Virus record (IMG/VR): IMGVR_UViG_3300033512_000345 | Coordinates: 1-64,000 of that record | Direction: 5' to 3' (one strand) | Source of the DNA: a virus | Length of the DNA: 64,000 nucleotides | Shown: positions 32,841 through 58,321 of the stretch, in pieces | Layout of the letters: every line of letters starts with the position of its first letter | Position numbering within the stretch: position 1 is the stretch's first letter | The notes under the pieces: generated by a model | What the model was told of the DNA's origin: nothing | The model's database searches: none | What the model saw: the letters and a program-made list of their open reading frames with translations, nothing else | Made by a program: the position numbers and the translations under genes

Positions 32841-33641
32841 TTAGAAAGGTTCGTCATCAGGAATCCCTGTAGGAGGAGTCAAAAGCTCATCCAGAGGGTT
32901 GCCGGAAGCCAAGGCGGACAAAGCTTCTTCTTTCATTTGTTCCAGGGTCTGGTCTGCAGCGTCCGGAGCAAAGGGGTCTTCGATCATGACATTGTTGGTC
33001 GCCATGACGGGCTCCGGAGCTTCATCGAGAACGGGAACCCCGAGCTCTTCTTCTGGAACGTCAGGAGTCGGATCCGGAAGAGTGACAGCGTTCGGGTCGG
33101 CAGCCATAGCTGCAGCGGCGGCATTCAGACGACGGGTCTCGGCAGCACGCTTGGCAGACTCGGAGCGTTTGGCCTTGGCCATCTCTTCTTCCGTCATGCC
33201 GGCAGCCTGAGCTTCGTCTTCGCGAAGAAGGGCCTGACCAATGATTTCTTCAGACTTAGCAATCGTTGCGGCGATCGCTGTGGTCTTCGGTCCGGAGCCT
33301 TGTTCCATCTTGATGATCATGCGGATGAGTTCGGCTTGGGACAGGTTCATCAAGTCAGGGCGAGCTTTTGCTGTGACACAGGTCACGCAGATGCCGTCTT
33401 CGTTGAGGTCAGCTGGTACGTTCAACGTTCCGCATTCCATACAGGCGACAACATCTACAGGCTGAGTCTCTGCTGTCAAGCTGGTACGACAACCAACACA
33501 AACCGTGGCCTCCCAACTATGAACGACGCCTTCCTTGACGACGACCGGCACATCGCTTCCTTCTTCGAAGTTGAACTGTGCCTTCTTCGTGATGTATCCA
33601 GCAAACATGGTACTGGACTTACAGATTGAACAAACTTTCAT
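32841..33641 (-). CDS. zinc-ribbon protein with an Ala/Glu/Pro-rich disordered C-terminal half ending in NPLDELLTPPTGIPDDEPF
   Basis: Start trimmed to ATG at 33641 (AAAGGAAGG). CSIC...CVGC...CMECG...CVTC. Confidence 0.7.
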   Translation of the reverse strand: MKVCSICKSSTMFAGYITKKAQFNFEEGSDVPVVVKEGVVHSWEATVCVGCRTSLTAETQPVDVVACMECGTLNVPADLNEDGICVTCVTAKARPDLMNLSQAELIRMIIKMEQGSGPKTTAIAATIAKSEEIIGQALLREDEAQAAGMTEEEMAKAKRSESAKRAAETRRLNAAAAAMAADPNAVTLPDPTPDVPEEELGVPVLDEAPEPVMATNNVMIEDPFAPDAADQTLEQMKEEALSALASGNPLDELLTPPTGIPDDEPF

Positions 33642-33795
33642 GGGATACCTTCCTTTCATTGAGGGGATAAGTAGTCTACGTCGGCCCGAAAGGGCCGGAC
33701 AACAAGACTCATAAGAGAATTTTGAAATAGAAATTTAGGACATGAACAACACGTCCTTTCTGGACATATGACCATCGAATACCGAAGAGAAAGAT

Positions 33796-49734: not shown

Positions 49735-50184
49735 TCAGTGGAAGTTTGAGCAATAAAAAACAGAAGCCAACATATAAGATAACAAAGTAATGAATGAAAC
49801 AGCATTGGTTGCTAGATAAATTCGCCCAAACCAGTTCTCTGTACTTGGATTGATCAATCTTTTAAGAATATACAAAACAAGAAGAATGGAACTTAGCAGA
49901 CGAACAACAGGTAATGGACTAAAAACAATGACAAGAAATATACCGATTTTATATAAAGTGATCAGGGTGTAAAGAATCTTGTCTGGAGTACTAACGTAAA
50001 CTTGATTCCAGATGATTCTTTCTGGAAAGAAAAAATCTCTGGAAGTTCTATGATGTCGGTTGTAGATCCGACGCGTTCTTGCTCTGCTGAAGAGATTGTG
50101 GATATTTGGATGGCCATAGGCAATCTCAAATATCTCAGTAAGAAGACCTATAAGAATAACAACAACAATCCATGTGTATGACAT
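49735..50184 (-). CDS. multi-pass membrane protein
   Basis: ATG at 50184, 7 nt after GGAGG. Four or five hydrophobic helices. Confidence 0.65.
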   Translation of the reverse strand: MSYTWIVVVILIGLLTEIFEIAYGHPNIHNLFSRARTRRIYNRHHRTSRDFFFPERIIWNQVYVSTPDKILYTLITLYKIGIFLVIVFSPLPVVRLLSSILLVLYILKRLINPSTENWFGRIYLATNAVSFITLLSYMLASVFYCSNFH

Positions 50185-50206
50185 GGGCACCCCTCCTCTC
50201 CCTTTT

Positions 50207-50215
50207 ATTGTATCA
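50207..50215 (-). promoter_or_regulatory. candidate extended -10 element TGATACAAT
   Basis: In the 112-bp gap, about 10 nt upstream of the RBS region of the 50184 gene. Confidence 0.35.
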
Positions 50216-50302
50216 TGGGAACAAAGAGTGGGAAAACGTAGAATTTACTGATAAGAGCGATGTTATGGTGATTTTGATAAATTTCAATAAGACATGGGTT
50301 GA

Positions 50303-50773
50303 CTAAAATTCTTCTGGAACCTGTCTGAAAACGATTGTGAATCGATCATCTAGAGATTCTACCAGGGGCTTAACGTCTTGCCAAGCTCGACGACCATTTC
50401 CACATCCGGGAGCAGGCAGGTAAATACGTTTCCAGCCAAACTTGTCTGCCAGTTGTTCAATTTCCCCAACAGATCTCTTGATCAGTTCAAGATCAGCAGC
50501 ATCCGACCAATGATGCTTGACAACAAAAGTCGCCAGATGCACTTGACCAGAACGAAAAGGATACTTGCCAACATTGAAGCAGCGGTTCCCATGTTGTTTG
50601 ATGAGCTGTCCGACCTTGAGCTGGAACCCGGGAAACAGACGGCTAGCTTGTGCTGCGATGCCACGACCCATGACACAGCAGCCGTCTTTGCGGACACATC
50701 CATTGCTTGTAATACAGAGGATGTCTCCAGGCTTCAAGACTTGAATGATGTCCTGGACGACAAGTGTCTTCAT
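50303..50773 (-). CDS. macro-domain-like protein (possible ADP-ribose binding or hydrolysis)
   Basis: GDILCITSNGCVRKDGCCVMGRGIAAQ and RIYLPAPGCGNGRRAW parallel the macro-domain motifs (D)VIVNAAN..L..GGGV.GAI and VAFP.ISTG.YG. Judged by eye only. Confidence 0.45.
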   Translation of the reverse strand: MKTLVVQDIIQVLKPGDILCITSNGCVRKDGCCVMGRGIAAQASRLFPGFQLKVGQLIKQHGNRCFNVGKYPFRSGQVHLATFVVKHHWSDAADLELIKRSVGEIEQLADKFGWKRIYLPAPGCGNGRRAWQDVKPLVESLDDRFTIVFRQVPEEF

Positions 50774-51201
50774 AAAGAGTCCCCCTTCTGTCCAAGAGCA
50801 TCACAAACCTTGCGATAGGCTTGATCTTCATCTTTAATCCAATCTAATCCGATTATCAATCGGAAAGGAAGATTTTTTTCATAAGCTATGCGAATCATGT
50901 GAGCAGTTCCTTTTGATTCTCCGTCCCAAAAGGCAATCAGGGCATGGGCTGTCTTGGCCATTTCAACGTTTCGAATATAGCCTGCAGATTTTCCATGAAG
51001 ATTCCAATCAGCCGGAAAACGTTTAATGTCGAGACCGTTTTGTTCTGCATAAATTTCTCCATAACGGTCAACGCCTCGAGCTGTTCCAGAGAAGATGGTC
51101 ACATCAGGTTTCTTGTATTCCAAGAACCTGTCGCAGTAATCATGAATTACAGGATAAGACTCTGGATAATTTCGGCTGCCGGCAATAATCACGTTGAACA
51201 T
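50770..51201 (-). CDS. SLOG-superfamily DUF2493 (YspA-like) protein
   Basis: Start trimmed to ATG at 51201 (AGGAGGG). IIAGSR, IFSGTARGVDRYGE, FPADW..HGKSAGYIRN and AFWDGESKGT. Confidence 0.8.
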   Translation of the reverse strand: MFNVIIAGSRNYPESYPVIHDYCDRFLEYKKPDVTIFSGTARGVDRYGEIYAEQNGLDIKRFPADWNLHGKSAGYIRNVEMAKTAHALIAFWDGESKGTAHMIRIAYEKNLPFRLIIGLDWIKDEDQAYRKVCDALGQKGDSL

Positions 51202-51241
51202 CAGACCCTCCTGAATTATTTGATGTTTATATAAGTATACT

Positions 51242-52063
51242 TTATTCCGGAGCGTGTTCATACTCTGTAGATTCATCGTCCGGATCCCAATCTGCAGGAA
51301 TGATGATGATCGTTTTGTTCATGTAGAGATTTAGAACGAACAAGTCAAAAGGATCCATGTATCGGACCTCCATCGAATTGCGTCCTTCTCGACCTTTAAT
51401 GTAAACAGACAGAATAGAGAAACCATTAAGAATCGTATGATTCTTTGAAAGAGTGAATCCCTTAGCGTCACTGGTTTTTGAACGTTTGGAGTAAAAACTG
51501 TCTGAAGGCTTGATTTCGTCATCTTCTGGTGCAAAAACAAATTCCCACCATTGATGCCTTTCATCATAAGCTGCCGACATATACCAGTTCCCACGATTAT
51601 GCTGTTCTTCTTCGTCGGTTTCATTATTGATATACTTCCGGTATTCTTCTATCAGTTCTTCGATAGTAATGGATTCTCGTTTTTGAACAAGCATGAGGTT
51701 AAGGTTGTTCTGAATCTTTTTCTGAAGATCTTCAGCCATGGTTCCATGGATCAATTCATTCACTGTCTTCCCAATGTATGTATTGTAAGCAGAAAAACCC
51801 ACGGAGCTCACGATAGTGGAAACGTTCTTTTCCACTTCCTTAGAGATGAGATTCTTAAGAGAATAGGAGCCCAACGCATCAGCGACGCCGGCCTGAATGG
51901 TCTTTTCTATGCCGTCAGTAATCATTTTATGAACTGTACCAGAAGAGAACAAATCATTCATCTTCTGGGTAATGATACTTCCCAAGTCAATCACATGAGC
52001 CGGGGCTTCTTTGGGAAGTTCGTGTTGTGGAGTGTCATCGATCTTGCTTTTGTTGTTATTCAT
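51242..52063 (-). CDS. hypothetical protein
   Basis: 273 aa. RBS TAGGAGGA. Confidence 0.7.
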   Translation of the reverse strand: MNNNKSKIDDTPQHELPKEAPAHVIDLGSIITQKMNDLFSSGTVHKMITDGIEKTIQAGVADALGSYSLKNLISKEVEKNVSTIVSSVGFSAYNTYIGKTVNELIHGTMAEDLQKKIQNNLNLMLVQKRESITIEELIEEYRKYINNETDEEEQHNRGNWYMSAAYDERHQWWEFVFAPEDDEIKPSDSFYSKRSKTSDAKGFTLSKNHTILNGFSILSVYIKGREGRNSMEVRYMDPFDLFVLNLYMNKTIIIIPADWDPDDESTEYEHAPE

Positions 52064-52074
52064 GAAATATCCTC

Positions 52075-52644
52075 CTATGCGTTGGCTTCGCTCATCCCGT
52101 CTTGATCTTCCAAAGCAGGGTCGTCAATGATGACATGTTTGCCTTTGGAAGCTTTCGTAGCAGGAACGGCGGCCTTGATGGTGGGGGTGATTTGATTGAT
52201 GGTCTGAAAGAGCTGACTGAAGATTTGAAGATGCTTGTACTTCTGTTCGAAATACTTCAGTTCGCTCAAGGCATTCTGAATGGTCTGCTGGGTAAAGTCT
52301 GCATCAGACATAGCATTCTCGATGGTAACGTACTTTCTTTTTTCCTCGTTTGCCGGTGTCGTGTATGTTACAGACACAAAGGCTCTGACCTCCGGTTCCT
52401 GAGGAAGAACCTGAACACGGACAATCTGTCCGATCAGGGTTCTGGCTTGTTGTTCCCTCCATTTTTCGGCAGCAATCCCATCTTTCCATTCGAAGCATTT
52501 GTGAAGGACAGCGTTGGGAGGCCTTGCCTGATCGACGATAAGGGGCGGATCGATTACTCCAAAGTTCTTTTCAATATTCTCCAGTTCTTGTCCGGCTGTT
52601 TGAGCGTCAACCGGAAACGACATACTCCTGTACTTGTAAATCAT
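52075..52644 (-). CDS. hypothetical conserved phage-type protein
   Basis: 189 aa. RBS AAGGAGG. The N-terminal LHKCFEWKDGIAAEKWREQQARTLI motif resembles a phage family I cannot name. Confidence 0.7.
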   Translation of the reverse strand: MIYKYRSMSFPVDAQTAGQELENIEKNFGVIDPPLIVDQARPPNAVLHKCFEWKDGIAAEKWREQQARTLIGQIVRVQVLPQEPEVRAFVSVTYTTPANEEKRKYVTIENAMSDADFTQQTIQNALSELKYFEQKYKHLQIFSQLFQTINQITPTIKAAVPATKASKGKHVIIDDPALEDQDGMSEANA

Positions 52645-53231
52645 AAAACCTCCTTGTAATCATTACCTGGCACACCTCGACGTGCCTCAACACAGCTCAC
52701 CCGAATACAACTTGCCTAAACGAAACTTACCAAGAAGAGCCTCAGCCAACCTTGCCTGCCGCACCTCAACGAACCAGACCGTATCATGCCGAACCTCACC
52801 TGACCAGACACAACCTCGCCTGCCTTACCACAACGAATCATACAGACCAAACCCCAACAAAACTCACCGTGCCTGCCACAACTAACCTCAACTAACCAGA
52901 ACTGAACTGAACTCACCGTGCCTGCCCAACCAGACCGGAACTGAACATAATAAGACGCACCTCATCTAACCTGAACTCGCCTTGCCTGCCAAACCTCATC
53001 ATGCCTTGCATTACCTTGACTCAAGATAACATAACGTGCCGAGCCTGCCACACCGAGCCGAGCCCTGCCGTGCCGAACCGTGACCTAACACACCGCAGCA
53101 TAACAGACCGTACCGTGCCTGCCGAACCACAACCTAACTAACCTTAAGAGAACGCGACCCAACCCACCTTGCCTGCCAGACCTTATCTGACCATATTCTG
53201 CCGTACCACACATCACCTTGCCTGCCTTGAT
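52645..53231 (-). repeat. non-coding array of at least 9 dispersed direct repeats with core GCCTGCC (consensus CC(G/T)TGCCTGCC on the plus strand)
   Basis: Cores start at 52754, 52818, 52871, 52920, 52984, 53043, 53117, 53171 and 53220. The plus strand is about 70% A+C. No ORF has an RBS. Confidence 0.85.
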
Positions 53232-53852
53232 TTATTCGACGTGGTACATGCCAAAGCTTCCGCCTTTTTCTGCACGCCATTCTCCTACGCCAGTGGCAAA
53301 TCCGCCCAGGTTGAACAGGTTGACGATTTGGTCAAGGCTCATGACATTGGCATTGTAACGAACATTGAGGTAAGCTTCCCATTTCGGGAATTCTGCACGA
53401 TAACGGATGTCCGTAGTCATTTGGATGCGAACCATGTCTTCTCGAGACTGAGGGGTTCCAATGATTTCAACCAGTTCTCCGATGATATGAAAGGCTCCAT
53501 TGGTCGAAACCTTGTCCTTGGTGATGCCGGCACGATAACCAGCAGACACGGCAGAAGCCTTGAACCCTGTGGACGGGAATCCGAAATGACCCTTGGCAAT
53601 GTCTTCTTCTGTCGGGGTCTCCGGGCATTCAGACATCCAGTAGAGAGATTCAACATAGTCTCTGAAAGGATTCTTTGCCGTTTTGCCGTTGGATGCCTTT
53701 TTCATCTGCTTGTCCAGCATCTCATTCTTGGCTTTTTCGGACCATTTGTGAACGATCAGGGGAGAATCCCCAACCACATGAATGACGGCTGTTCTGAGGT
53801 CGATCTTGATGAGGGAAACGTTGACTGAAGTATCGATAACTGCCTTTGCCAT
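53232..53852 (-). CDS. hypothetical conserved protein, last gene of the tmk-radical SAM operon
   Basis: Start trimmed to ATG at 53852 (TAGGAGGA). 206 aa. Confidence 0.7.
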   Translation of the reverse strand: MAKAVIDTSVNVSLIKIDLRTAVIHVVGDSPLIVHKWSEKAKNEMLDKQMKKASNGKTAKNPFRDYVESLYWMSECPETPTEEDIAKGHFGFPSTGFKASAVSAGYRAGITKDKVSTNGAFHIIGELVEIIGTPQSREDMVRIQMTTDIRYRAEFPKWEAYLNVRYNANVMSLDQIVNLFNLGGFATGVGEWRAEKGGSFGMYHVE

Positions 53853-53872
53853 GATAAATCCTCCTATGGGGA

Positions 53873-54634
53873 TCATTCCCCGCTTGCTTGTGACAAGTCC
53901 AATTCGGACTCGTTTACGGCCCTCAGTATAATATTTCTGAGCGGCTCGTTTCTGAGATTTCCAAGAGACCTGTGGTCGATCATTGAATAAGACTGGTCGC
54001 AATTGATGACGATATTGCCATTGGCTGAAACGTAAAGTTGTTCGACCCAAAGGGTAGGCCCTTCAGGTTCCCTGACCTCAATATTTATGGGGTCATCGTG
54101 ATATTGAACTGGGGATGGTTTCTTTCCAATTTGATTCAAACGGGCATTGCCGACATCTAAGAGATATCGACTTCTCTCATGTGGACGGTTCCCACTGATT
54201 TCGTCATGAGATGTGGAATAGAAAGACAAGGCCTTGACCCTATCGACATTCTTTTGAGGAATGTCATCGTGGTAATCATCTCTGCTGACTGTGATGCTGC
54301 AGGATTCCTTATCGTCTGCATACAGATAGAATTCGACCATTTCCTGCAGGGCTGACGGATTGTCTTGCTTGGCATTGGTAGCCACAAAGAATCCTCCAAA
54401 GTAAACGTTGTTGGATTCCATGAGACGACGAGTTTCCTGGATGGCTTTGAGGTTAAGAAAAGGTTCTCCTCCCGTAAAAACAAGTTCATGAACTTCTTCC
54501 ACGTCTTCAAAGAGATTGGCCAGGATCTGATCTGTCATGTCCACGTTTCTGGCTTTGCCCCGAAGACAATGGGCACAAGACATGTTGCAGCGACGGGTCG
54601 TTTCAATCAGGAGATTGTTGATGATCAGCTTCAT
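53873..54634 (-). CDS. radical SAM enzyme
   Basis: CNMSCAHC (CX3CX2C) at residues 16-23 and FTGGEPFL. 253 aa. ATGA overlap with the tmk stop. Confidence 0.88.
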   Translation of the reverse strand: MKLIINNLLIETTRRCNMSCAHCLRGKARNVDMTDQILANLFEDVEEVHELVFTGGEPFLNLKAIQETRRLMESNNVYFGGFFVATNAKQDNPSALQEMVEFYLYADDKESCSITVSRDDYHDDIPQKNVDRVKALSFYSTSHDEISGNRPHERSRYLLDVGNARLNQIGKKPSPVQYHDDPINIEVREPEGPTLWVEQLYVSANGNIVINCDQSYSMIDHRSLGNLRNEPLRNIILRAVNESELDLSQASGE

Positions 54635-55296
54635 AGGCAGGATTCCTCCTCGAAGTTGAATGGAGAGGCTGAAGAATAGTACTTCTGGGTGATGTGACGC
54701 AAGATAGCACAGGACAAAAGATCGGGAGAAAGGGTTGCGTCCACCACCCGGATACGGGCCGGATCAGCCTCTGCCAAGAAATGATATCCTTCATAGACAC
54801 GAGCATGAAAATCGAGCTGTTCTTGTTCAAGGCGATCGGCCGCCTCTCCTGTTCCCATTCTCCGCAACATGGACTGCTCCGGAGGAAGGTTCAAAAAGAA
54901 GGTCATGTCAGGAATGGTGCCATCAATGGCTGCGACATTGGCTTTCTGAACATAGTCCAAACCCAGTTGACGACCAAAGCCCTGATAGGCATAACTGGAG
55001 TCTACGAACCTGTCACACAGGATGACTTTTCCGGATTCAAGAGCTGGTCGAATAACCTGTCTGACAAGCTGGGCACGAGAGGCTGCGTAGAGAAGCATCT
55101 CTGCTTCTGCTGTCATTTCTTGATTATTCAAGTCCAACAGAAGAGACCGAATCTTTTCTCCTATGGCTGTTCCTCCGGGTTCTCGAATCAAAGCCGTCTC
55201 TCTTCCCGCAAGTTGAAACCACTTGGACAGTTTCAGAATTTGGGTCGTCTTTCCGCATCCGTCGTTTCCTTCGAATGAAATGAATAATCCTTTCAT
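54631..55296 (-). CDS. tmk: thymidylate (dTMP) kinase
   Basis: Start trimmed to ATG at 55296 (AGGAGG). FISFEGNDGCGKTTQ, REPGGT and the DR(F/Y).DS region. Confidence 0.9.
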   Translation of the reverse strand: MKGLFISFEGNDGCGKTTQILKLSKWFQLAGRETALIREPGGTAIGEKIRSLLLDLNNQEMTAEAEMLLYAASRAQLVRQVIRPALESGKVILCDRFVDSSYAYQGFGRQLGLDYVQKANVAAIDGTIPDMTFFLNLPPEQSMLRRMGTGEAADRLEQEQLDFHARVYEGYHFLAEADPARIRVVDATLSPDLLSCAILRHITQKYYSSASPFNFEEESCL

Positions 55297-55330
55297 AAAG
55301 GCCTCCTGATGTAAATTAAGCAACAGAAAA

Positions 55331-55352
55331 GGCAGAGGACAAATCCTCTGCC
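55331..55352 (-). terminator. terminator-like hairpin in the tmk leader
   Basis: GGCAGAGGA-UUUG-UCCUCUGCC followed by UUUUCUGUUGC, about 25 nt upstream of the tmk RBS. Confidence 0.55.
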
Positions 55353-55401
55353 CAGTCTGGGGCTCTGACCGGACCGCTGTCGGTCCGGGTATGGTAAATT
55401 T

Positions 55402-55410
55402 ATTATAGCA
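55402..55410 (-). promoter_or_regulatory. candidate extended -10 element TGCTATAAT
   Basis: Lies 14 nt downstream of the 55424 stop and upstream of two leader hairpins. Confidence 0.35.
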
Positions 55411-55423
55411 GATAGATTTTTAG

Positions 55424-55792
55424 TTAATCAAGATGAACATATGTAGAAATGAAGTTCTCAATTTCAAAACAATCTTTCTGCTGACTAAGTGTCATTTCAT
55501 CAATATGACTGTTTATCCATCGTTTTTGACTTGTCGTTAGATGAGAATGTGAACTGTAGAAACAAGAAACGAAAGCTCGTTTTGCACCAAAGACAGAAGT
55601 GCCAAATTTGAGATATCCCATATATTCAAGTAGAGCCTCACCTTCAAGAGGGAGTAAGTAATAGTCATTTGTAATCATGGGGAGTTTTTTGTCATACATA
55701 ATTTGATCTGCAGTAAAACAATGTTTTCCGTAACCGCATGGAGTAAATTCTGCAGTCGGAGATAACCATCCTGAAAGAAAAGGCAGACTCAT
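55424..55792 (-). CDS. hypothetical protein
   Basis: 122 aa. Weak RBS. Confidence 0.6.
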   Translation of the reverse strand: MSLPFLSGWLSPTAEFTPCGYGKHCFTADQIMYDKKLPMITNDYYLLPLEGEALLEYMGYLKFGTSVFGAKRAFVSCFYSSHSHLTTSQKRWINSHIDEMTLSQQKDCFEIENFISTYVHLD

Positions 55793-55817
55793 TGTTGGTC
55801 ACGCTTCTTTCTCTAGG

Positions 55818-56558
55818 TCAAACATTCTGATGAATTATAAGATTGGTCAATTCGTTGAATCTTCTGTAAGAGTCTTCGATAACCTGAGCTGCTCCGCTCC
55901 CTTTCCCGTAAATGAGTTCCAACTCTTCCAAGGACAATGGAATCGTTGCCCAAGACATCGTCAGGTTATTGGATAGAGCTTGATGAAGTTTCATGACGGC
56001 AGTCTGGTCAAAAGCAAATTCATCCGCCCATCCAAGGATGTCTCCATAGGTTGCAAATTGATAATCCGGAAAGAGTCCTTTGTTCAGAAATAATTCGGCA
56101 GTAGGAGGAAGTCGAACAGGTCCGATGGCCTTCATAATTTCAGCCTGTCTTTTGTCTGCCAGAGCCAAAAGCTCCAGCATTCGGGGTAAATTGTTCGGGT
56201 CTCCGGTTACTTGTAAATGTCTTTCCCGAATGACGTCCTTCTGAAACTGAACCTGGATGCCCTTGAGATAAATCAGTTTAGAAATCAAGGTGCCAACTGG
56301 ATGAAGGTAAGCTCCTTCAAAGCTTGGTTTGTGTCCTTCGTCCTTGAACCAGTCTAAAATAGCTTTGTGCTGATAACTTCCAAGATGAGCGTCCACAGAA
56401 ATATGCAAAACCTGTGACTTTCCTGTACGATAACGAGCCCATGTGAAATGGTCAAGCATGTCATGGTCTTCCGCCCATCTCATGAATCCGCGGAATTGAT
56501 CATCTGAAATGAAAGTGATCAGGATGTCGGGTTCTCCGTCCAGATCAAAAAGAATCAT
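55818..56558 (-). CDS. hypothetical protein
   Basis: 246 aa. ATGA overlap with the upstream gene. Confidence 0.7.
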   Translation of the reverse strand: MILFDLDGEPDILITFISDDQFRGFMRWAEDHDMLDHFTWARYRTGKSQVLHISVDAHLGSYQHKAILDWFKDEGHKPSFEGAYLHPVGTLISKLIYLKGIQVQFQKDVIRERHLQVTGDPNNLPRMLELLALADKRQAEIMKAIGPVRLPPTAELFLNKGLFPDYQFATYGDILGWADEFAFDQTAVMKLHQALSNNLTMSWATIPLSLEELELIYGKGSGAAQVIEDSYRRFNELTNLIIHQNV

Positions 56559-56863
56559 TCCGGTTTCTCTCCTTCCAATGGTAAATCAAGACTTAGACCG
56601 GTCAAATCTCTCTTGAATGACCTGGAAGGAGTTCGAGTCGGTTCATGTTTCTTGATCCAGGCCTGAAGAAATTCTGAATAGTCTTTGGCCAACAAATAGG
56701 TGAAGACAGCAATGACAGCCAAGAAAGCGTCATGGGTACTGATGGCACGAACAAGGACAATCCCTACGCAAGCCATAGCAAAGATCATGAAAAAATAAAG
56801 CAATAGCAGTTCCTTAAGGAACCTTTTGTTTCTGGTCTCAGTGAGTCGTTTACCTTTGGTCAT
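56555..56863 (-). CDS. membrane protein
   Basis: Start trimmed to ATG at 56863 (AGGAGGA). Two TM helices. Confidence 0.6.
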   Translation of the reverse strand: MTKGKRLTETRNKRFLKELLLLYFFMIFAMACVGIVLVRAISTHDAFLAVIAVFTYLLAKDYSEFLQAWIKKHEPTRTPSRSFKRDLTGLSLDLPLEGEKPE

Positions 56864-57380
56864 ATTGATTTCCTCCTGTAAAATATTCGATGGGGACAAT
56901 GACATTGAGTATATCCAAAGACTTAAGTTCTTCAGTGACCTTAGTCAAGGCTTCAAACAGAACCTGAACAGATATCCTCGGATCTTTCATGATGTCTTCA
57001 ACAGAAGACGAGGCGTCTTTTCGAAGCTTTCGAATAGAGCATTCGAGATCTTCTTTCTTGTTTTGAAGATGATGAAATTTCTCCTGAATCTTTTCAAAAG
57101 AAACAAGATGATACGGAGGCAGTTGAGATAACACCAGCCAAACACCGTTCTCGTCTGCATGATAAGACTGAACTCCGGTACAACCTTCAAATACACTGAT
57201 AGACTTGTTAAGCAGGGTTAATTTCTCCTCATTGTCGAGCGTAGTTCCATCAACTACCAGCCTGAAATCCCAGTAGTCTTGGTTCTCGGTTTCAAATTTT
57301 GAAAACCTCGGTAAAGCATGCTCAGCAAGAAATTGATCAAATTCAGACCATTCAAAATAAAGACATCGATGTTTATTCAT
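56850..57380 (-). CDS. hypothetical protein
   Basis: 176 aa. Confidence 0.7.
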   Translation of the reverse strand: MNKHRCLYFEWSEFDQFLAEHALPRFSKFETENQDYWDFRLVVDGTTLDNEEKLTLLNKSISVFEGCTGVQSYHADENGVWLVLSQLPPYHLVSFEKIQEKFHHLQNKKEDLECSIRKLRKDASSSVEDIMKDPRISVQVLFEALTKVTEELKSLDILNVIVPIEYFTGGNQYDQR

Positions 57381-57564
57381 CAGGAATTTCCTCTCTTTCT
57401 TCGAATCCCGGACACCAATCAGGGATTCCGGAAATACGTCGTCGCATCAAACGATCGGCTTTCAGGCACATATTCATATAAGACATCCATACTTGACGAT
57501 TAGGCCTGAATTGTGGAGCCTGATGAAATTTGCAACGAAGACATGTCCAATTGTTCATGGACAT
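57373..57564 (-). CDS. small Cys-containing protein downstream of a radical SAM gene
   Basis: 63 aa with CLRC...C...C. RBS AGGAGAG. Confidence 0.55.
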   Translation of the reverse strand: MSMNNWTCLRCKFHQAPQFRPNRQVWMSYMNMCLKADRLMRRRISGIPDWCPGFEEREEIPDE

Positions 57565-57568
57565 AAAA

Positions 57569-58321
57569 TCACTCTCCTACAAGACGACGGACAGAAACTG
57601 GTTGGAAATCATATAAGCCACAAGCGTTGCATTTCATGTTCAAGATATTCTGTCTTATCTGATCCTCGGTATCATGGACGGAACCGATACTGTAACATGA
57701 AGGGGTTTCTCCCAATCGAATCGTTCCGTCAGGTTGGATTGTAGGGACACAGGACTTTCCAAAGCCCTGCAGCACATCCATGGCTTCAGCCAAGGACATG
57801 TTGTGATTCCGGATTAAATTACGAAGATTTCCACAGAAAGGCCCCCTTGGGGCGATAGGCCCATGATTGGCCGGAGCCCGGCCGGCAGGGAACAGGTTTC
57901 CAGGAATATTGTCAAAGTATTCGATATTATGATGCTGAGGATCTGGAATTGAAATCGGATAGTACTTCGGGTCGTTGACAATTTGCCACAGATAAGGAAG
58001 AATGCCATATTCATTCTCCCAATTGGGAGATTGTGTGAACATTCCATTGGAAATGACCATCAATCTTTTCTCCACAGGAATCCAAGGTCTGGCATTCATA
58101 CTGTTGGAGAGAACATATTGAATTTGATTCATGAACTCAAAGAACTGCGGATGATCTGTTGGTTCCCCTCCAGAGATCAATATCACAAGAGGCTGCCATT
58201 CCACGATCTTGGCCAAAGCCTGATTCAGGACAGCGAAAGACATATGCTTGCCATTGGGAGTGGCGTCTATCATACAGTGACTGCAGTTCATGTGACAGGA
58301 ATGGGTAATGCACAAAATCAT
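57569..58321 (-). CDS. radical SAM enzyme (second copy, divergent)
   Basis: CHMNCSHC at residues 9-16 and ISGGEPT. C-terminal Cys residues (CGNL...C...C..C) could bind an auxiliary cluster. Confidence 0.88.
   Translation of the reverse strand: MILCITHSCHMNCSHCMIDATPNGKHMSFAVLNQALAKIVEWQPLVILISGGEPTDHPQFFEFMNQIQYVLSNSMNARPWIPVEKRLMVISNGMFTQSPNWENEYGILPYLWQIVNDPKYYPISIPDPQHHNIEYFDNIPGNLFPAGRAPANHGPIAPRGPFCGNLRNLIRNHNMSLAEAMDVLQGFGKSCVPTIQPDGTIRLGETPSCYSIGSVHDTEDQIRQNILNMKCNACGLYDFQPVSVRRLVGE

What the first reader, a model, noticed from the sequence alone, without database searches (positions are those of the whole stretch)
52645..53231. 587-bp non-coding island with extreme strand asymmetry and at least 9 same-orientation copies of CC(G/T)TGCCTGCC
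This is the largest gap in an otherwise tightly packed one-strand gene array. It sits between the last gene of the tmk-radical SAM operon and the 52075..52644 gene.

- Composition: by hand count over 52681-53220 the plus strand has 81 G and 88 T in 540 nt, about 70% A+C. The sense (minus) strand is therefore G+T-rich.
- Main repeat: the core GCCTGCC starts at 52754, 52818, 52871, 52920, 52984, 53043, 53117, 53171 and 53220, always in the same orientation, with 49-74 bp spacing. Three copies share the longer AACTC(A/G)CC(G/T)TGCCTGCC.
- Second sub-repeat: TGCCGAACC occurs at 52787, 53071 and 53120.
- Coding: no frame has an RBS-preceded ORF. The two track ORFs here are low-complexity artefacts.

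The repeat is too short and irregular for a CRISPR array. Candidate roles:
- an iteron-type origin;
- an R-loop-primed origin, because the non-template strand is G-rich in the direction of transcription;
- a terminase (pac) or centromere-like protein-binding array;
- a cluster of orientation-dependent Chi-like G/T-rich sites that protect a linear DNA end;
- a G/U-rich RNA carrying repeated SD-like AAGGUG decoys.
Basis: partly seen in the sequence, partly recalled or inferred. Interest (0 to 1): 0.82.

Follow-up and report, generated by a model that had tools for sequence, protein, structure and literature searches.

The report
Phage VIPR guide-RNA array
The 587-bp "non-coding island" is an array of about nine guide RNAs built from five-base GGYNN repeats, lying between a small CRISPR-like (RAMP) protein gene and its accessory gene; this is a VIPR system, first described in 2026 preprints, and at least three of its guides appear aimed at early genes of rival temperate phages of Clostridia.

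Summary
On the transcribed (minus) strand, 52662-53226 is a run of G(G/T)YNN pentamers. A 4-nt GGCA register slip (GGCA|GGCAN) breaks it into nine units of 10-19 pentamers.

- **Family:** the same architecture occurs in 96 of 120 IMG/VR loci found by DNA pattern alone. 72 have a homolog of the upstream ORF and 78 a homolog of the downstream ORF.
- **Upstream ORF (53232-53852):** its profile hits PDB 36pp "SUSP1 Vipr protein" (E 1.4e-6), and the guanine-binding residues are conserved. Its model matches only CRISPR RAMPs.
- **Literature:** this matches the VIPR system of two 2026 bioRxiv preprints, including their "staggered" 1-nt-overlapping vrRNA arrays.
- **Targets:** under the published 1-nt-skip rule, vr3, vr5 and vr9 match a small early gene, a sigma-like gene and the PolA gene. 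These lie in related temperate phage-like elements, in IMG/VR contigs (all three guides) and in Clostridia genomes (vr3 and vr9). Controls fail.

Verdict: a new member of a recently described kind. Expression, processing and the accessory protein's function are untested.

The parts
53232..53852 (-). vipr: 206-aa RAMP-family protein. True start is the ATG at 53852, preceded by GGAGG; the 272-aa TTG ORF 53232-54050 is over-extended.
   Evidence: The family profile hits PDB 36pp_D 'SUSP1 Vipr protein', E 1.4e-6. SUSP1 R138 and D177-W178-R179 align to R152 and E191-W192-R193; R152, W192 and R193 are invariant and E191 nearly invariant in 68 homologs. The AF2 model (pLDDT 83) gives Foldseek top hits that are all CRISPR RAMPs. 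JGI calls the same 206-aa gene.
52662..53226 (-). Staggered vrRNA array: G(G/T)YNN pentamers, nine units separated by the GGCA|GGCAN register slip. It starts 5 nt after the vipr stop codon and ends just before the vap RBS.
   Evidence: Pentamer position 1 is G in 91%, position 2 is G 60% / T 31%, position 3 is Y in 99%, and positions 4-5 are variable.
53173..53222 (-). vr1 (10 pentamers)
   Evidence: Parse. No convincing target.
53119..53173 (-). vr2 (11 pentamers)
   Evidence: The 18-base seed gave 0 hits in IMG/VR.
53045..53119 (-). vr3 (15 pentamers). The predicted target is a small early gene (phrog_3280) of Clostridia temperate phage-like elements.
   Evidence: The seed hit 33 IMG/VR contigs. 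The full guide matches 26/30 NN positions (pentamers 1-13), and the skipped bases vary among contigs. The target is also present in 20 Clostridia genomes or MAGs.
52986..53045 (-). vr4 (12 pentamers)
   Evidence: Not scanned against a public collection. No match above background in the fetched loci.
52922..52986 (-). vr5 (13 pentamers). The predicted target is a sigma-factor-like gene.
   Evidence: 24/26 NN positions (pentamers 1-12) match in L180, L184 and L197, with wobble variation.
52873..52922 (-). vr6 (10 pentamers). It shares its first three pentamers with vr7.
   Evidence: The 19/20 hits were judged to be chance.
52820..52873 (-). vr7 (about 11 pentamers; one indel breaks the register)
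   Evidence: spacing 53 rather than 5n+4.
52756..52820 (-). vr8 (13 pentamers)
   Evidence: Only chance-level hits.
52662..52756 (-). vr9 (about 19 pentamers; no clean terminal junction). The predicted target is the PolA-type DNA polymerase gene of the same elements as vr3.
   Evidence: 26-30/38 NN positions match in 21 of 33 IMG/VR loci and 13 of 20 genome loci that were selected by vr3 only. Shuffled controls gave mean 23.0, sd 0.8, max 26; other skip rules gave 22-24.
52075..52644 (-). vap: 189-aa VIPR-accessory protein of unknown fold (phrog_15946; conserved PLHxxFEWDDxxAAExYRxxQA motif)
   Evidence: Homologs lie next to the array, on the same strand, in 78 of 96 independently found loci. 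Closest relatives are 52-55% identical. No Pfam, PDB, NCBIfam or PADLOC match. Not similar to SUSP1 vap1.

Best explanation
Window 52075-53852 (minus strand) is a complete VIPR (Viral Interference Programmable Repeat) locus with the order vipr, vrRNA array, vap.

Inferred from the published SUSP1 work, not tested here:
- The island is transcribed with the operon.
- One Vipr protomer binds each pentamer and sequesters the G-G-Y bases.
- The two variable bases of every pentamer are presented to pair with double-stranded DNA, skipping every third target base.
- This gives transcriptional silencing of the target.

Shown here:
- The island has the vrRNA sequence code.
- The upstream gene is a Vipr homolog with a RAMP fold.
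- The trio is conserved in many phages.
- Three guides (vr3, vr5, vr9) match, under exactly that skip rule, a small early gene, a sigma-like regulator gene and the DNA polymerase gene of related temperate phage-like elements. These elements occur in IMG/VR contigs, and the vr3 and vr9 sites also in Clostridia genomes.

The likely biological role is therefore inter-phage competition: a roughly 200-kb phage silencing resident or co-infecting rivals. The array is of the 'staggered' kind. Units have no structured tail. They abut with a 1-nt overlap (…GGCAG/GCAN…), and the constant terminal GGCAG pentamer does not pair with the target.
For: **1. RNA code**
- Lag-5 periodicity is about 10 sd above shuffles.
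- Pentamer profile is G 91%, G/T 91%, Y 99%, N, N, with units of 10-15 pentamers and one of about 19.
- Across 822 junctions in 93 loci, the G, G and Y positions are about 80%, 80% and 75-80% conserved, while the N positions are near-uniform. 77% of spacings equal 4 mod 5.

**2. Protein**
- The profile hits SUSP1 Vipr (PDB 36pp), E 1.4e-6, with the RNA-contact residues conserved (residue roles from bioRxiv 10.64898/2026.04.26.720927).
- All top Foldseek hits of the model are Csm3/Cas7/Cmr6-type RAMPs, probability 0.99-1.0.

**3. Linkage**
- Of 96 array loci found by DNA pattern alone, 72 have vipr, 78 have vap and 69 have both, always on the G-rich strand.
- 29 share the window's order vipr-array-vap.
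- None of the other four window neighbours tested (tmk, radical SAM, the 51242 and 50770 ORFs) is linked.

**4. Relatives**
- Relatives with 75-78% identical Vipr keep the junctions and the frame but have entirely different NN bases and 4-6 units.

**5. Targets**
- vr3 matches 26/30 in 33 viral contigs and 20 Clostridia genomes.
- vr9 matches up to 30/38 in loci chosen by vr3 only, z about 8.7 against shuffles, and only under the 1-nt skip.
- vr5 matches 24/26.
- Skipped bases fall on codon third positions, and both DNA strands are targeted.
- No self-target exists in the 64-kb window.

**6. RNA structure**
- The RNA is not structured: z = +0.87.

**7. Literature**
- The description of VIPR, its staggered arrays and the skip rule comes from bioRxiv 10.64898/2026.04.26.720920.
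Against: - No expression, processing or binding data exist for this locus. The preprint itself did not validate staggered arrays experimentally.
- Only 59 of 103 pentamers are perfect GGY. 31% have T at the second position, which SUSP1 Vipr reads as G.
- Sequence similarity to SUSP1 Vipr is significant only over the C-terminal ~55-66 residues (24% identity). The alignment of H17 to H35 is not significant on its own.
- The vap has no detectable similarity to SUSP1 vap1 or to any known fold, so the type (I-VII) is unassigned.
- Six of nine guides have no convincing target. vr5's target loci do not carry the vr3 or vr9 sites in the fetched parts.
- Only 64 kb of a roughly 200-kb genome could be checked for self-targets.
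- Both source papers are preprints.
Confidence: 0.88

Rival explanations
1. A replication origin: either iterons bound by an initiator, or an R-loop-primed origin using the G-rich non-template strand.
For: The island is a large intergenic gap with direct repeats in a replication-gene neighbourhood. The transcript would be G-rich.
Against: - The conserved unit is a degenerate 5-nt frame with hypervariable bases, not a fixed protein-binding iteron.
- Repeat spacing follows 5n+4, not helical phasing.
- Array content differs completely between close relatives.
- The array travels with a RAMP protein and vap, not with Rep, DnaA or DnaD genes, and it sits in the early operons of small temperate phages too.
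- Cumulative GC skew shows only the local dip caused by the array's own composition, and genes on both sides share one strand.
- No inverted repeats were found in 52600-53300; an AT-rich unwinding element was not looked for.
Confidence: 0.02
2. A DNA-level protein-binding or protection array: a pac site, a centromere-like parS/parC, or a cluster of Chi-like sites.
For: The motifs are same-orientation and G/T-rich, and the GGCAGGC core is strictly conserved.
Against: - There are no terminase or partition genes nearby.
- The conserved neighbours are an RNA-binding RAMP homolog and vap.
- The 5-nt frame with a conserved GGY and free NN is the published RNA code of vrRNAs.
- The NN bases match foreign phage genes under the skip rule, which a DNA site array would not explain.
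Confidence: 0.02
3. A G/U-rich decoy or sponge RNA, for example SD-like AAGGUG decoys or a sponge for a host RNA-binding protein. Alternatively, an array of two-tier G-quadruplexes.
For: The region lies inside a same-strand operon, so it is probably transcribed. (GGNNN)n could in principle form 2-tetrad G4s, and GAGGU-like strings occur.
Against: - AAGGTG occurs only twice on the sense strand here (CACCTT at 53165 and 53214).
- The pyrimidine at position 3 is 99% conserved and the frame is kept through non-GG pentamers. Neither a G4 nor an SD decoy requires this.
- The convergent 1-nt-skip matches of the NN bases to rival phage genes are unexplained by a sponge.
Confidence: 0.04
4. A genuine VIPR locus, but decaying or inactive in this phage: the guides are relics and the array no longer functions.
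For: 43% of pentamers depart from GGY. vr7 has a frame-breaking indel and vr9 lacks a clean terminal junction. Six guides have no identified target.
Against: - vipr and vap are intact, and the key residues are invariant.
- Degenerate pentamers inside vr3 and vr9 (GTTAT, GCTGC, ATTCG) still carry NN bases that match the target in register.
- Relatives of the same clade show the same G(G/T)Y habit.
- The published work notes frequent internal degeneracy of vrRNAs.
Confidence: 0.06

Closest known systems
VIPR systems with 'staggered' vrRNA arrays (bioRxiv 10.64898/2026.04.26.720920, fig. S18)
   Same: - Phage-encoded ~20-kDa RAMP (Vipr) plus one accessory gene plus an intergenic array of YNNGG/GGYNN pentamers.
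- Adjacent vrRNAs overlap by 1 nt, which explains the 5n+4 spacing of GGCAGGC.
- No cas genes or CRISPR repeats.
- Targets are found under the 1-nt skip rule with skips at wobble positions, on either DNA strand.
- No self-targeting within the 64 kb examined.
   Different: - The preprint's supplementary figures and type tables were not available, so identity with its staggered-array clade and the type number could not be checked.
- The second G is T in 31% of pentamers here.
- The host context is a ~200-kb phage replication module rather than a prophage early operon.
Type II VIPR of Escherichia phage SUSP1 (PDB 36pp; bioRxiv 10.64898/2026.04.26.720920 and .720927)
   Same: - Homologous Vipr C-terminal half, with the thumb Arg and the G-loop (D/E)-W-R conserved.
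- GGYNN guides of 10-15 repeats.
- Gene order vipr then vap, with flanking arrays.
   Different: - SUSP1 vrRNAs are ~100 nt, separated, and each ends in an invariant ~40-nt tail with a pseudoknot. Here there is no tail and no predicted structure.
- The vap is unrelated in sequence.
- Vipr is only 24% identical over 66 residues.
- tblastn with the window's protein does not find SUSP1.
Class 1 CRISPR-Cas effector backbones (Cas7/Csm3/Cmr4 filaments on crRNA)
   Same: - RAMP fold (RRM core, G-rich loop, thumb), and these are the best structural matches.
- One protomer per fixed number of guide nucleotides, with periodic base flipping.
- An array of guides transcribed as one precursor.
   Different: - The period is 5 nt with only 2 pairing bases, instead of 6 nt with 5 pairing bases.
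- There are no long constant repeats, no Cas1/Cas2, no Cas6 and no large subunit.
- The guide is itself a tandem repeat.

Membership tests
VIPR system | Vipr protein: a small (~20 kDa) single-RRM RAMP with a G-loop and thumb | tested here: met
   The protein is 206 aa. The AF2 model (pLDDT 83, pTM 0.76) gives 50 of 50 listed Foldseek PDB hits that are CRISPR RAMPs (Csm3, type VII Cas7, Cmr6, Cascade Cas7, Cas7-11), with probability mostly 0.9-1.0. There is a glycine-rich C-terminal loop, GGFATGVGEWRAEKGGSFG.
VIPR system | Sequence homology to a validated Vipr, including the residues that read the GGY motif | tested here: met
   The profile of 68 homologs against the PDB gave one significant hit, 36pp 'SUSP1 Vipr protein', E 1.4e-6. 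R138 aligns to R152; D177, W178 and R179 align to E191, W192 and R193. R152, W192 and R193 are invariant and E191 nearly invariant in the family. The H17-to-H35 alignment is only tentative.
VIPR system | vrRNA: tandem YNNGG/GGYNN pentamers (at least 4; typically 9-16 per vrRNA) with GGY conserved and NN hypervariable | tested here: met
   The window has nine units of 10-15 pentamers, and one of about 19. Position profile is G 91% / G 60% + T 31% / Y 99% / N / N. The family logo covers 822 junctions. NN bases differ completely in close relatives. Caveat: the second G is relaxed in this clade.
VIPR system | Minimal locus: vipr plus one vap gene, flanked by intergenic array(s), with no cas genes or CRISPR repeats | tested here: met
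   The order vipr-array-vap occurs here and in 29 loci; vipr-vap-array occurs in 27 loci. The other four window neighbours tested are not linked. No regular repeat-spacer array is present.
VIPR system | Guides specify DNA targets through NN dinucleotides with a 1-nt skip. Targets lie in competing mobile elements, with skips at codon wobble positions and at least 80% NN match. | tested here: met
   vr3 matches 26/30 (87%), vr5 24/26 (92%) and vr9 up to 30/38 (79%). Only the 1-nt skip exceeds the controls. Targets are genes of temperate phage-like elements in IMG/VR contigs, and for vr3 and vr9 also in Clostridia genomes. Six guides remain unresolved.
VIPR system | No self-targeting by the guides | tested here: inconclusive
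   The best 1-nt-skip matches within the 64-kb window (63-80%) are no better than for other skip rules. However, about two thirds of the ~200-kb genome was not available.
VIPR system | vrRNAs are expressed and processed, co-purify with Vipr, and repress matching DNA | not testable with these tools
   This needs small-RNA sequencing, pull-down and reporter assays.
VIPR type II (SUSP1 / P. fulva clade) | Each vrRNA ends in an invariant ~40-nt structured 3' tail (pseudoknot); the accessory gene is vap1 | tested here: not met
   Units abut directly at GGCA|GGCAN and there is no room for a tail. The RNA folds no better than shuffles (z +0.87). The vap shows no similarity to SUSP1 vap1.
VIPR 'staggered array' architecture | Adjacent vrRNAs overlap by 1 nt, so the end of one marks the start of the next | tested here: met
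   …GGCAG/GCAN… shares one G. Spacings are 5n+4 in 7 of 8 cases here and in 553 of 722 in the family. Target matches start at the first pentamer after the junction and stop before the terminal GGCAG.
CRISPR array | Constant direct repeats of about 23-50 nt alternating with unique spacers of similar length; cas genes nearby | tested here: not met
   The only constant element is 7-9 nt (GGCAGGCA). Tandem Repeats Finder and the repeat scan show no such repeats. No cas genes were found among the window ORFs that were scanned.
Iteron-type replication origin | Fixed-sequence iterons bound by a linked initiator, usually helically phased, with an adjacent AT-rich unwinding element | tested here: not met
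   Apart from a 7-nt core, only a degenerate 5-nt frame is conserved. Content is hypervariable between relatives. The element is linked to RAMP and vap genes, not to an initiator. There is no skew switch.

The most novel reading that the evidence does not exclude
In this Vipr clade the guides have no RNA handle at all. A -1 register slip (GGCA|GGCAN) alone sets the boundaries of successive Vipr filaments on one long transcript, and the terminal GGCAG pentamer acts as a non-pairing cap. The code also tolerates T (and occasionally other bases) at the second G.

In addition, a large, probably virulent phage would use such an array to shut down the sigma factor, an early small gene and the DNA polymerase of resident temperate elements of its Clostridia host. 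That would be lytic-versus-prophage warfare, rather than the helper-versus-satellite or prophage-versus-prophage conflict described so far.
Probability: 0.35. Interest if true: 0.7.

Novelty: new member of a known kind. Interest (0 to 1): 0.5.

Why it matters
VIPR is a newly reported, PAM-free, very compact RNA-guided DNA-binding system, proposed to predate CRISPR.

- **An untested architecture with usable targets.** This locus is an example of the staggered, tail-less array architecture, which the discoverers did not test experimentally. Three natural guide-target pairs are identified here, so processing, filament boundaries and the tolerance of non-GG pentamers become directly testable.
- **Prevalence and misannotation.** This clade is abundant: more than 2,000 homologous protein clusters, about a hundred IMG/VR loci from a single capped DNA-pattern scan, and well-known Gordonia and Mycobacterium phages. 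Its arrays are currently annotated as hypothetical proteins or left as unexplained gaps.
- **Scanning lesson.** A strand-asymmetric island with 5-nt G periodicity next to a ~200-aa protein ending in a glycine-rich loop is a recognisable signature of VIPR.

Tried and rejected
- **Known RNA families:** Rfam at gathering threshold on the whole window and at E <= 1 on 52400-53500 found nothing, and there are no tRNAs.
- **Close phage relatives:** blastn of 50000-56000 against 50,697 phage records gave only two trivial hits.
- **Promoters and terminators:** the scan found nothing above shuffle expectation.
- **Fourier power at period 5:** this failed to single out the array, because the 4-nt slips reset the phase. 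Autocorrelation and GG-at-lag-5 counts worked.
- **Single-sequence AlphaFold of Vipr:** useless (pLDDT 32).
- **vap annotation:** Pfam, PHROGs (unknown function), NCBIfam, PADLOC and a PDB profile search gave nothing.
- **vr2 target:** the 18-base seed gave 0 hits.
- **vr8 targets:** the seed gave 1 viral hit and 2 metagenome hits. The examined one (L275) lies in a flagellar fliI-like ATPase gene and the other carries the same SITLSEA peptide; the guide extension fails in both.
- **vr6 target:** 19/20 in about ten marine-phage loci, within a gene that looks RecA-like by eye (no family search was run). The skip bases fall on codon position 2 and the loci are unrelated to the other targets, so this was judged chance.
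- **vr1 target:** 18/20 only.
- **Origin, pac, Chi, centromere, SD-decoy and G-quadruplex readings:** considered and rejected, as set out under the rival explanations.
Full report
**1. The observation**

The island is as described.
- 52645-53231 has no credible ORF.
- On the + strand it is 68% A+C: C 223, A 176, T 101, G 87.
- GCCTGCC sits at the nine stated positions in one orientation. The window has 14 matches on both strands against 4.2 +/- 1.9 in dinucleotide-preserving shuffles, and nine of them lie in these 587 bp.
- The secondary motifs are also present.
- All genes of the 64-kb window are on the minus strand. They form a phage replication and nucleotide-metabolism module: a 1129-aa DNA polymerase (phrog_405), NAD ligase, primase, helicases, thymidylate kinase and radical SAM proteins.
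- An identical protein is recorded on a contig of 199,804 bp, so the phage is about 200 kb.

**2.

Read on the transcribed (minus) strand, the island is a run of five-base units.
- G autocorrelation is 0.41 at lag 5, 0.33 at lags 10 and 15 and 0.27 at lag 20. Shuffles give 0.00 +/- 0.04.
- Splitting the sequence at each GGCAGGC and printing it in fives gives G(G/T)YNN pentamers. Position 1 is G in 91%, position 2 is G 60% / T 31%, position 3 is a pyrimidine in 99%, and positions 4 and 5 are variable.
- GGCAGGCA is a 4-nt step, that is, two pentamers sharing one G (GGCAG/GCAN). This is why seven of eight spacings are 5n+4.
- The array has nine units of 10-15 pentamers, plus a last unit of about 19. 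It begins 5 nt after the stop codon of the upstream gene and ends at the ribosome-binding site of the downstream gene.
- It is the only such block in the window.

**3. It is a family**

- 96 of the 120 pattern-found loci contain a 130-1,700-nt pentamer-periodic array on one strand.
- Over 822 junctions in 93 loci, the G, G and Y positions are about 80%, 80% and 75-80% conserved, and the two N positions are close to 25% each. 77% of spacings are 4 mod 5.
- These loci were selected by DNA alone. Even so, 72 encode a homolog of the window's upstream ORF, 78 a homolog of the downstream ORF and 69 both, always on the G-rich strand.
- The orders are vipr-array-vap (29, as here), vipr-vap-array (27) and array-vipr-vap (6). 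None of the other four window neighbours tested is linked.
- The closest relatives (protein 75-78% identical, on temperate-phage contigs with integrase and cI-like repressor) have the same layout with 4-6 units. The junctions are conserved and the NN bases are entirely different.

**4. The proteins**

The upstream gene is 53232-53852. It starts at an ATG with a GGAGG ribosome-binding site, JGI calls the same 206-aa product, and the 272-aa TTG ORF is over-extended.
- It has more than 2,000 homologous clusters and no Pfam domain.
- A profile of 68 homologs finds exactly one significant PDB entry, 36pp 'SUSP1 Vipr protein' (E 1.4e-6).
- In that alignment and in the pairwise BLAST, SUSP1 R138 (thumb) and D177-W178-R179 (G-loop) align with R152 and E191-W192-R193. 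The cryo-EM preprint shows these SUSP1 residues holding the two guanines and the pyrimidine. R152, W192 and R193 are invariant and E191 nearly invariant in the family.
- An alignment-based AlphaFold model (pLDDT 83) matches only CRISPR RAMPs in the PDB: Csm3, type VII Cas7, Cmr6, Cascade Cas7 and Cas7-11.
- The downstream 189-aa protein (phrog_15946) has a conserved PLHxxFEWDDxxAAExYRxxQA motif. It has no match in Pfam, NCBIfam, PADLOC or the PDB, and none to SUSP1 vap1.

**5. Literature**

A full-text search for pentanucleotide and phage terms returned bioRxiv 10.64898/2026.04.26.720920. A follow-up search found its companion, 10.64898/2026.04.26.720927. They describe the following.
- VIPR systems consist of a ~20-kDa ancestral RAMP (Vipr), an accessory gene (vap) and vrRNAs of 9-16 YNNGG repeats. 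GGY is conserved and NN is hypervariable.
- One Vipr protomer binds each repeat, and the NN dinucleotides pair with double-stranded DNA while every third target base is skipped.
- Natural targets lie in competing phages, often with the skipped base at the codon wobble position.
- There are seven types, including 'staggered arrays' whose vrRNAs overlap by 1 nt.

The window's locus fits this description point by point, and the 1-nt overlap explains the 5n+4 rule. It is not the characterised type II, for three reasons: there is no structured 3' tail (the RNA folds no better than shuffles, z +0.87; compare SUSP1), the vap is different, and Vipr similarity to SUSP1 is remote.

**6. Targets**

I converted guides into NNxNNx patterns.
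- **Self-targets.** None were found in the window.
- **vr3.** An 18-base seed from vr3 hit 33 IMG/VR contigs. Equivalent seeds from vr2 and vr8 hit 0 and 1, and 16-base seeds gave 6-46 mostly random hits. In 27 of the 33 contigs the match extends to the first 13 of 15 pentamers (26/30), while the skipped bases vary among contigs.
- **The vr3 site.** It lies in a ~70-aa gene (phrog_3280; …ADDELVDVLTAISVVSMRLARKL…). This gene is immediately downstream of a sigma-factor-like gene and upstream of phrog_408, an exonuclease, a gp2.5-like SSB and a PolA-type DNA polymerase. The same site occurs in 20 genomes or MAGs, nearly all Clostridia: Oscillospiraceae, Christensenellales, Butyricicoccus, Saccharofermentans, Proteiniclasticum and Dethiobacter. 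Some sites are on megabase contigs, so these are integrated elements.
- **vr9.** In loci chosen only by vr3, vr9 matches 26-30 of 38 positions inside the polymerase gene (KWSAFKKYNVRDVETEM). This holds in 21 of 33 viral loci and 13 of 20 genomic loci. Shuffled-pentamer controls give 23.0 +/- 0.8 (maximum 26 of 100), and the 0-, 2- and 3-nt skip rules give 22-24.
- **vr5.** It matches 24/26 in a sigma-like gene (KEQYEAFMQPLW) in three contigs that share other genes with the vr3 targets.
- **Shared properties of the matches.** Skips fall on third codon positions. vr3 pairs with the coding strand and vr5 and vr9 with the template strand, as expected for DNA rather than mRNA recognition.
- **Two details beyond the preprint.** The terminal GGCAG pentamer never pairs, while the first pentamer after the junction does. 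Pentamers that depart from GGY (GTTAT, GCTGC, ATTCG) still carry matching NN bases in register.
- **Unresolved guides.** vr1, vr2, vr6 and vr8 gave nothing convincing. vr4 and vr7 could not be scanned.

**7. Mechanism and status of each step**

Shown here:
- the RNA code;
- the homology and fold of Vipr;
- the conserved three-part module;
- hypervariability of the NN bases;
- skip-rule matches of three guides to early, regulatory and replication genes of related Clostridia temperate elements.

Taken from the preprints for SUSP1, and inferred here:
- transcription and processing into unit vrRNAs;
- one protomer per pentamer;
- triplex or R-loop binding;
- transcriptional silencing.

Unknown:
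- how staggered units are separated;
- what the vap does;
- how new guides arise.

The most likely role is interference by this large phage with resident or co-infecting temperate phages. The target taxonomy and Vipr relatives in Sporomusa and Ruminococcaceae suggest an anaerobic Bacillota host.

**8. Verdict**

The feature is a new member of a kind described only months ago. It is not new in principle, but it is a well-defined, target-annotated example of the untested staggered architecture.

Noticed in passing
L274 3112-3458 (Gordonia phage UmaThurman NC_031249.1, about 33334-33680): The annotated CDS gp40 'hypothetical protein' (record 33362-33685) is a GGYNN vrRNA array with GGCAGGC junctions, directly after the Vipr homolog gp39. 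It is almost certainly a spurious gene call.
   Followed up: partly
L273 2105-2381 and 2363-3579 (Mycobacterium phage BobaPhett NC_051636.1): In this phage, and probably in the ~27 other Mycobacterium phage records hit, the array lies upstream of the Vipr homolog (gp52). It overlaps the annotated small ORFs gp50 and gp51. gp53 is a vap of the same family as window 52075-52644.
   Followed up: partly
window 52820-52986 (vr5, vr6, vr7): vr6 and vr7 begin with the same three pentamers (GGCAC GGTGA GTTxx), and vr5 begins similarly. One guide is also shared between the relatives L125 and L128.
   Followed up: no
window 53232-54050 versus 53873-54634: The mechanical 272-aa TTG ORF overlaps the radical SAM gene by 178 nt. 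The real vipr start is the ATG at 53852, 20 nt after the radical SAM stop codon.
   Followed up: yes
window 50303-58321: The VIPR locus is embedded among thymidylate kinase, two radical SAM proteins (53873-54634 and 57569-58321), a YspA/SLOG-like protein (50770-51276) and a macro-domain-like protein (50303-50773). This could be a nucleotide-modification or anti-defence cluster. None of these genes is linked to the array in other phages.
   Followed up: partly
L001 6001-6237 (IMGVR_UViG_3300032038_000605): A 39%-identical vap homolog sits in a locus with no detectable pentamer array within 6 kb on either side (periodicity score 3). This may be a stand-alone vap or an array type that the GG-lag-5 detector misses.
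   Followed up: no
L275 5402-5430 and L276 337-365 (metagenome contigs): A 20-base seed from vr8 hits two contigs that encode the same SITLSEA peptide with different wobble bases; in L275 this is the C-terminal codons of a flagellar fliI-like ATPase gene. The guide's other pentamers do not match. This is probably chance, but a host-gene target is not excluded.
   Followed up: partly
L131-L163 and L253-L272: The vr3 and vr9 targets define a widespread family of ~40-60-kb elements. They carry a sigma-like gene, a tiny gene (phrog_3280), phrog_408, an exonuclease, a gp2.5-like SSB and PolA. They are found both as viral contigs and integrated in Clostridia genomes.
   Followed up: partly
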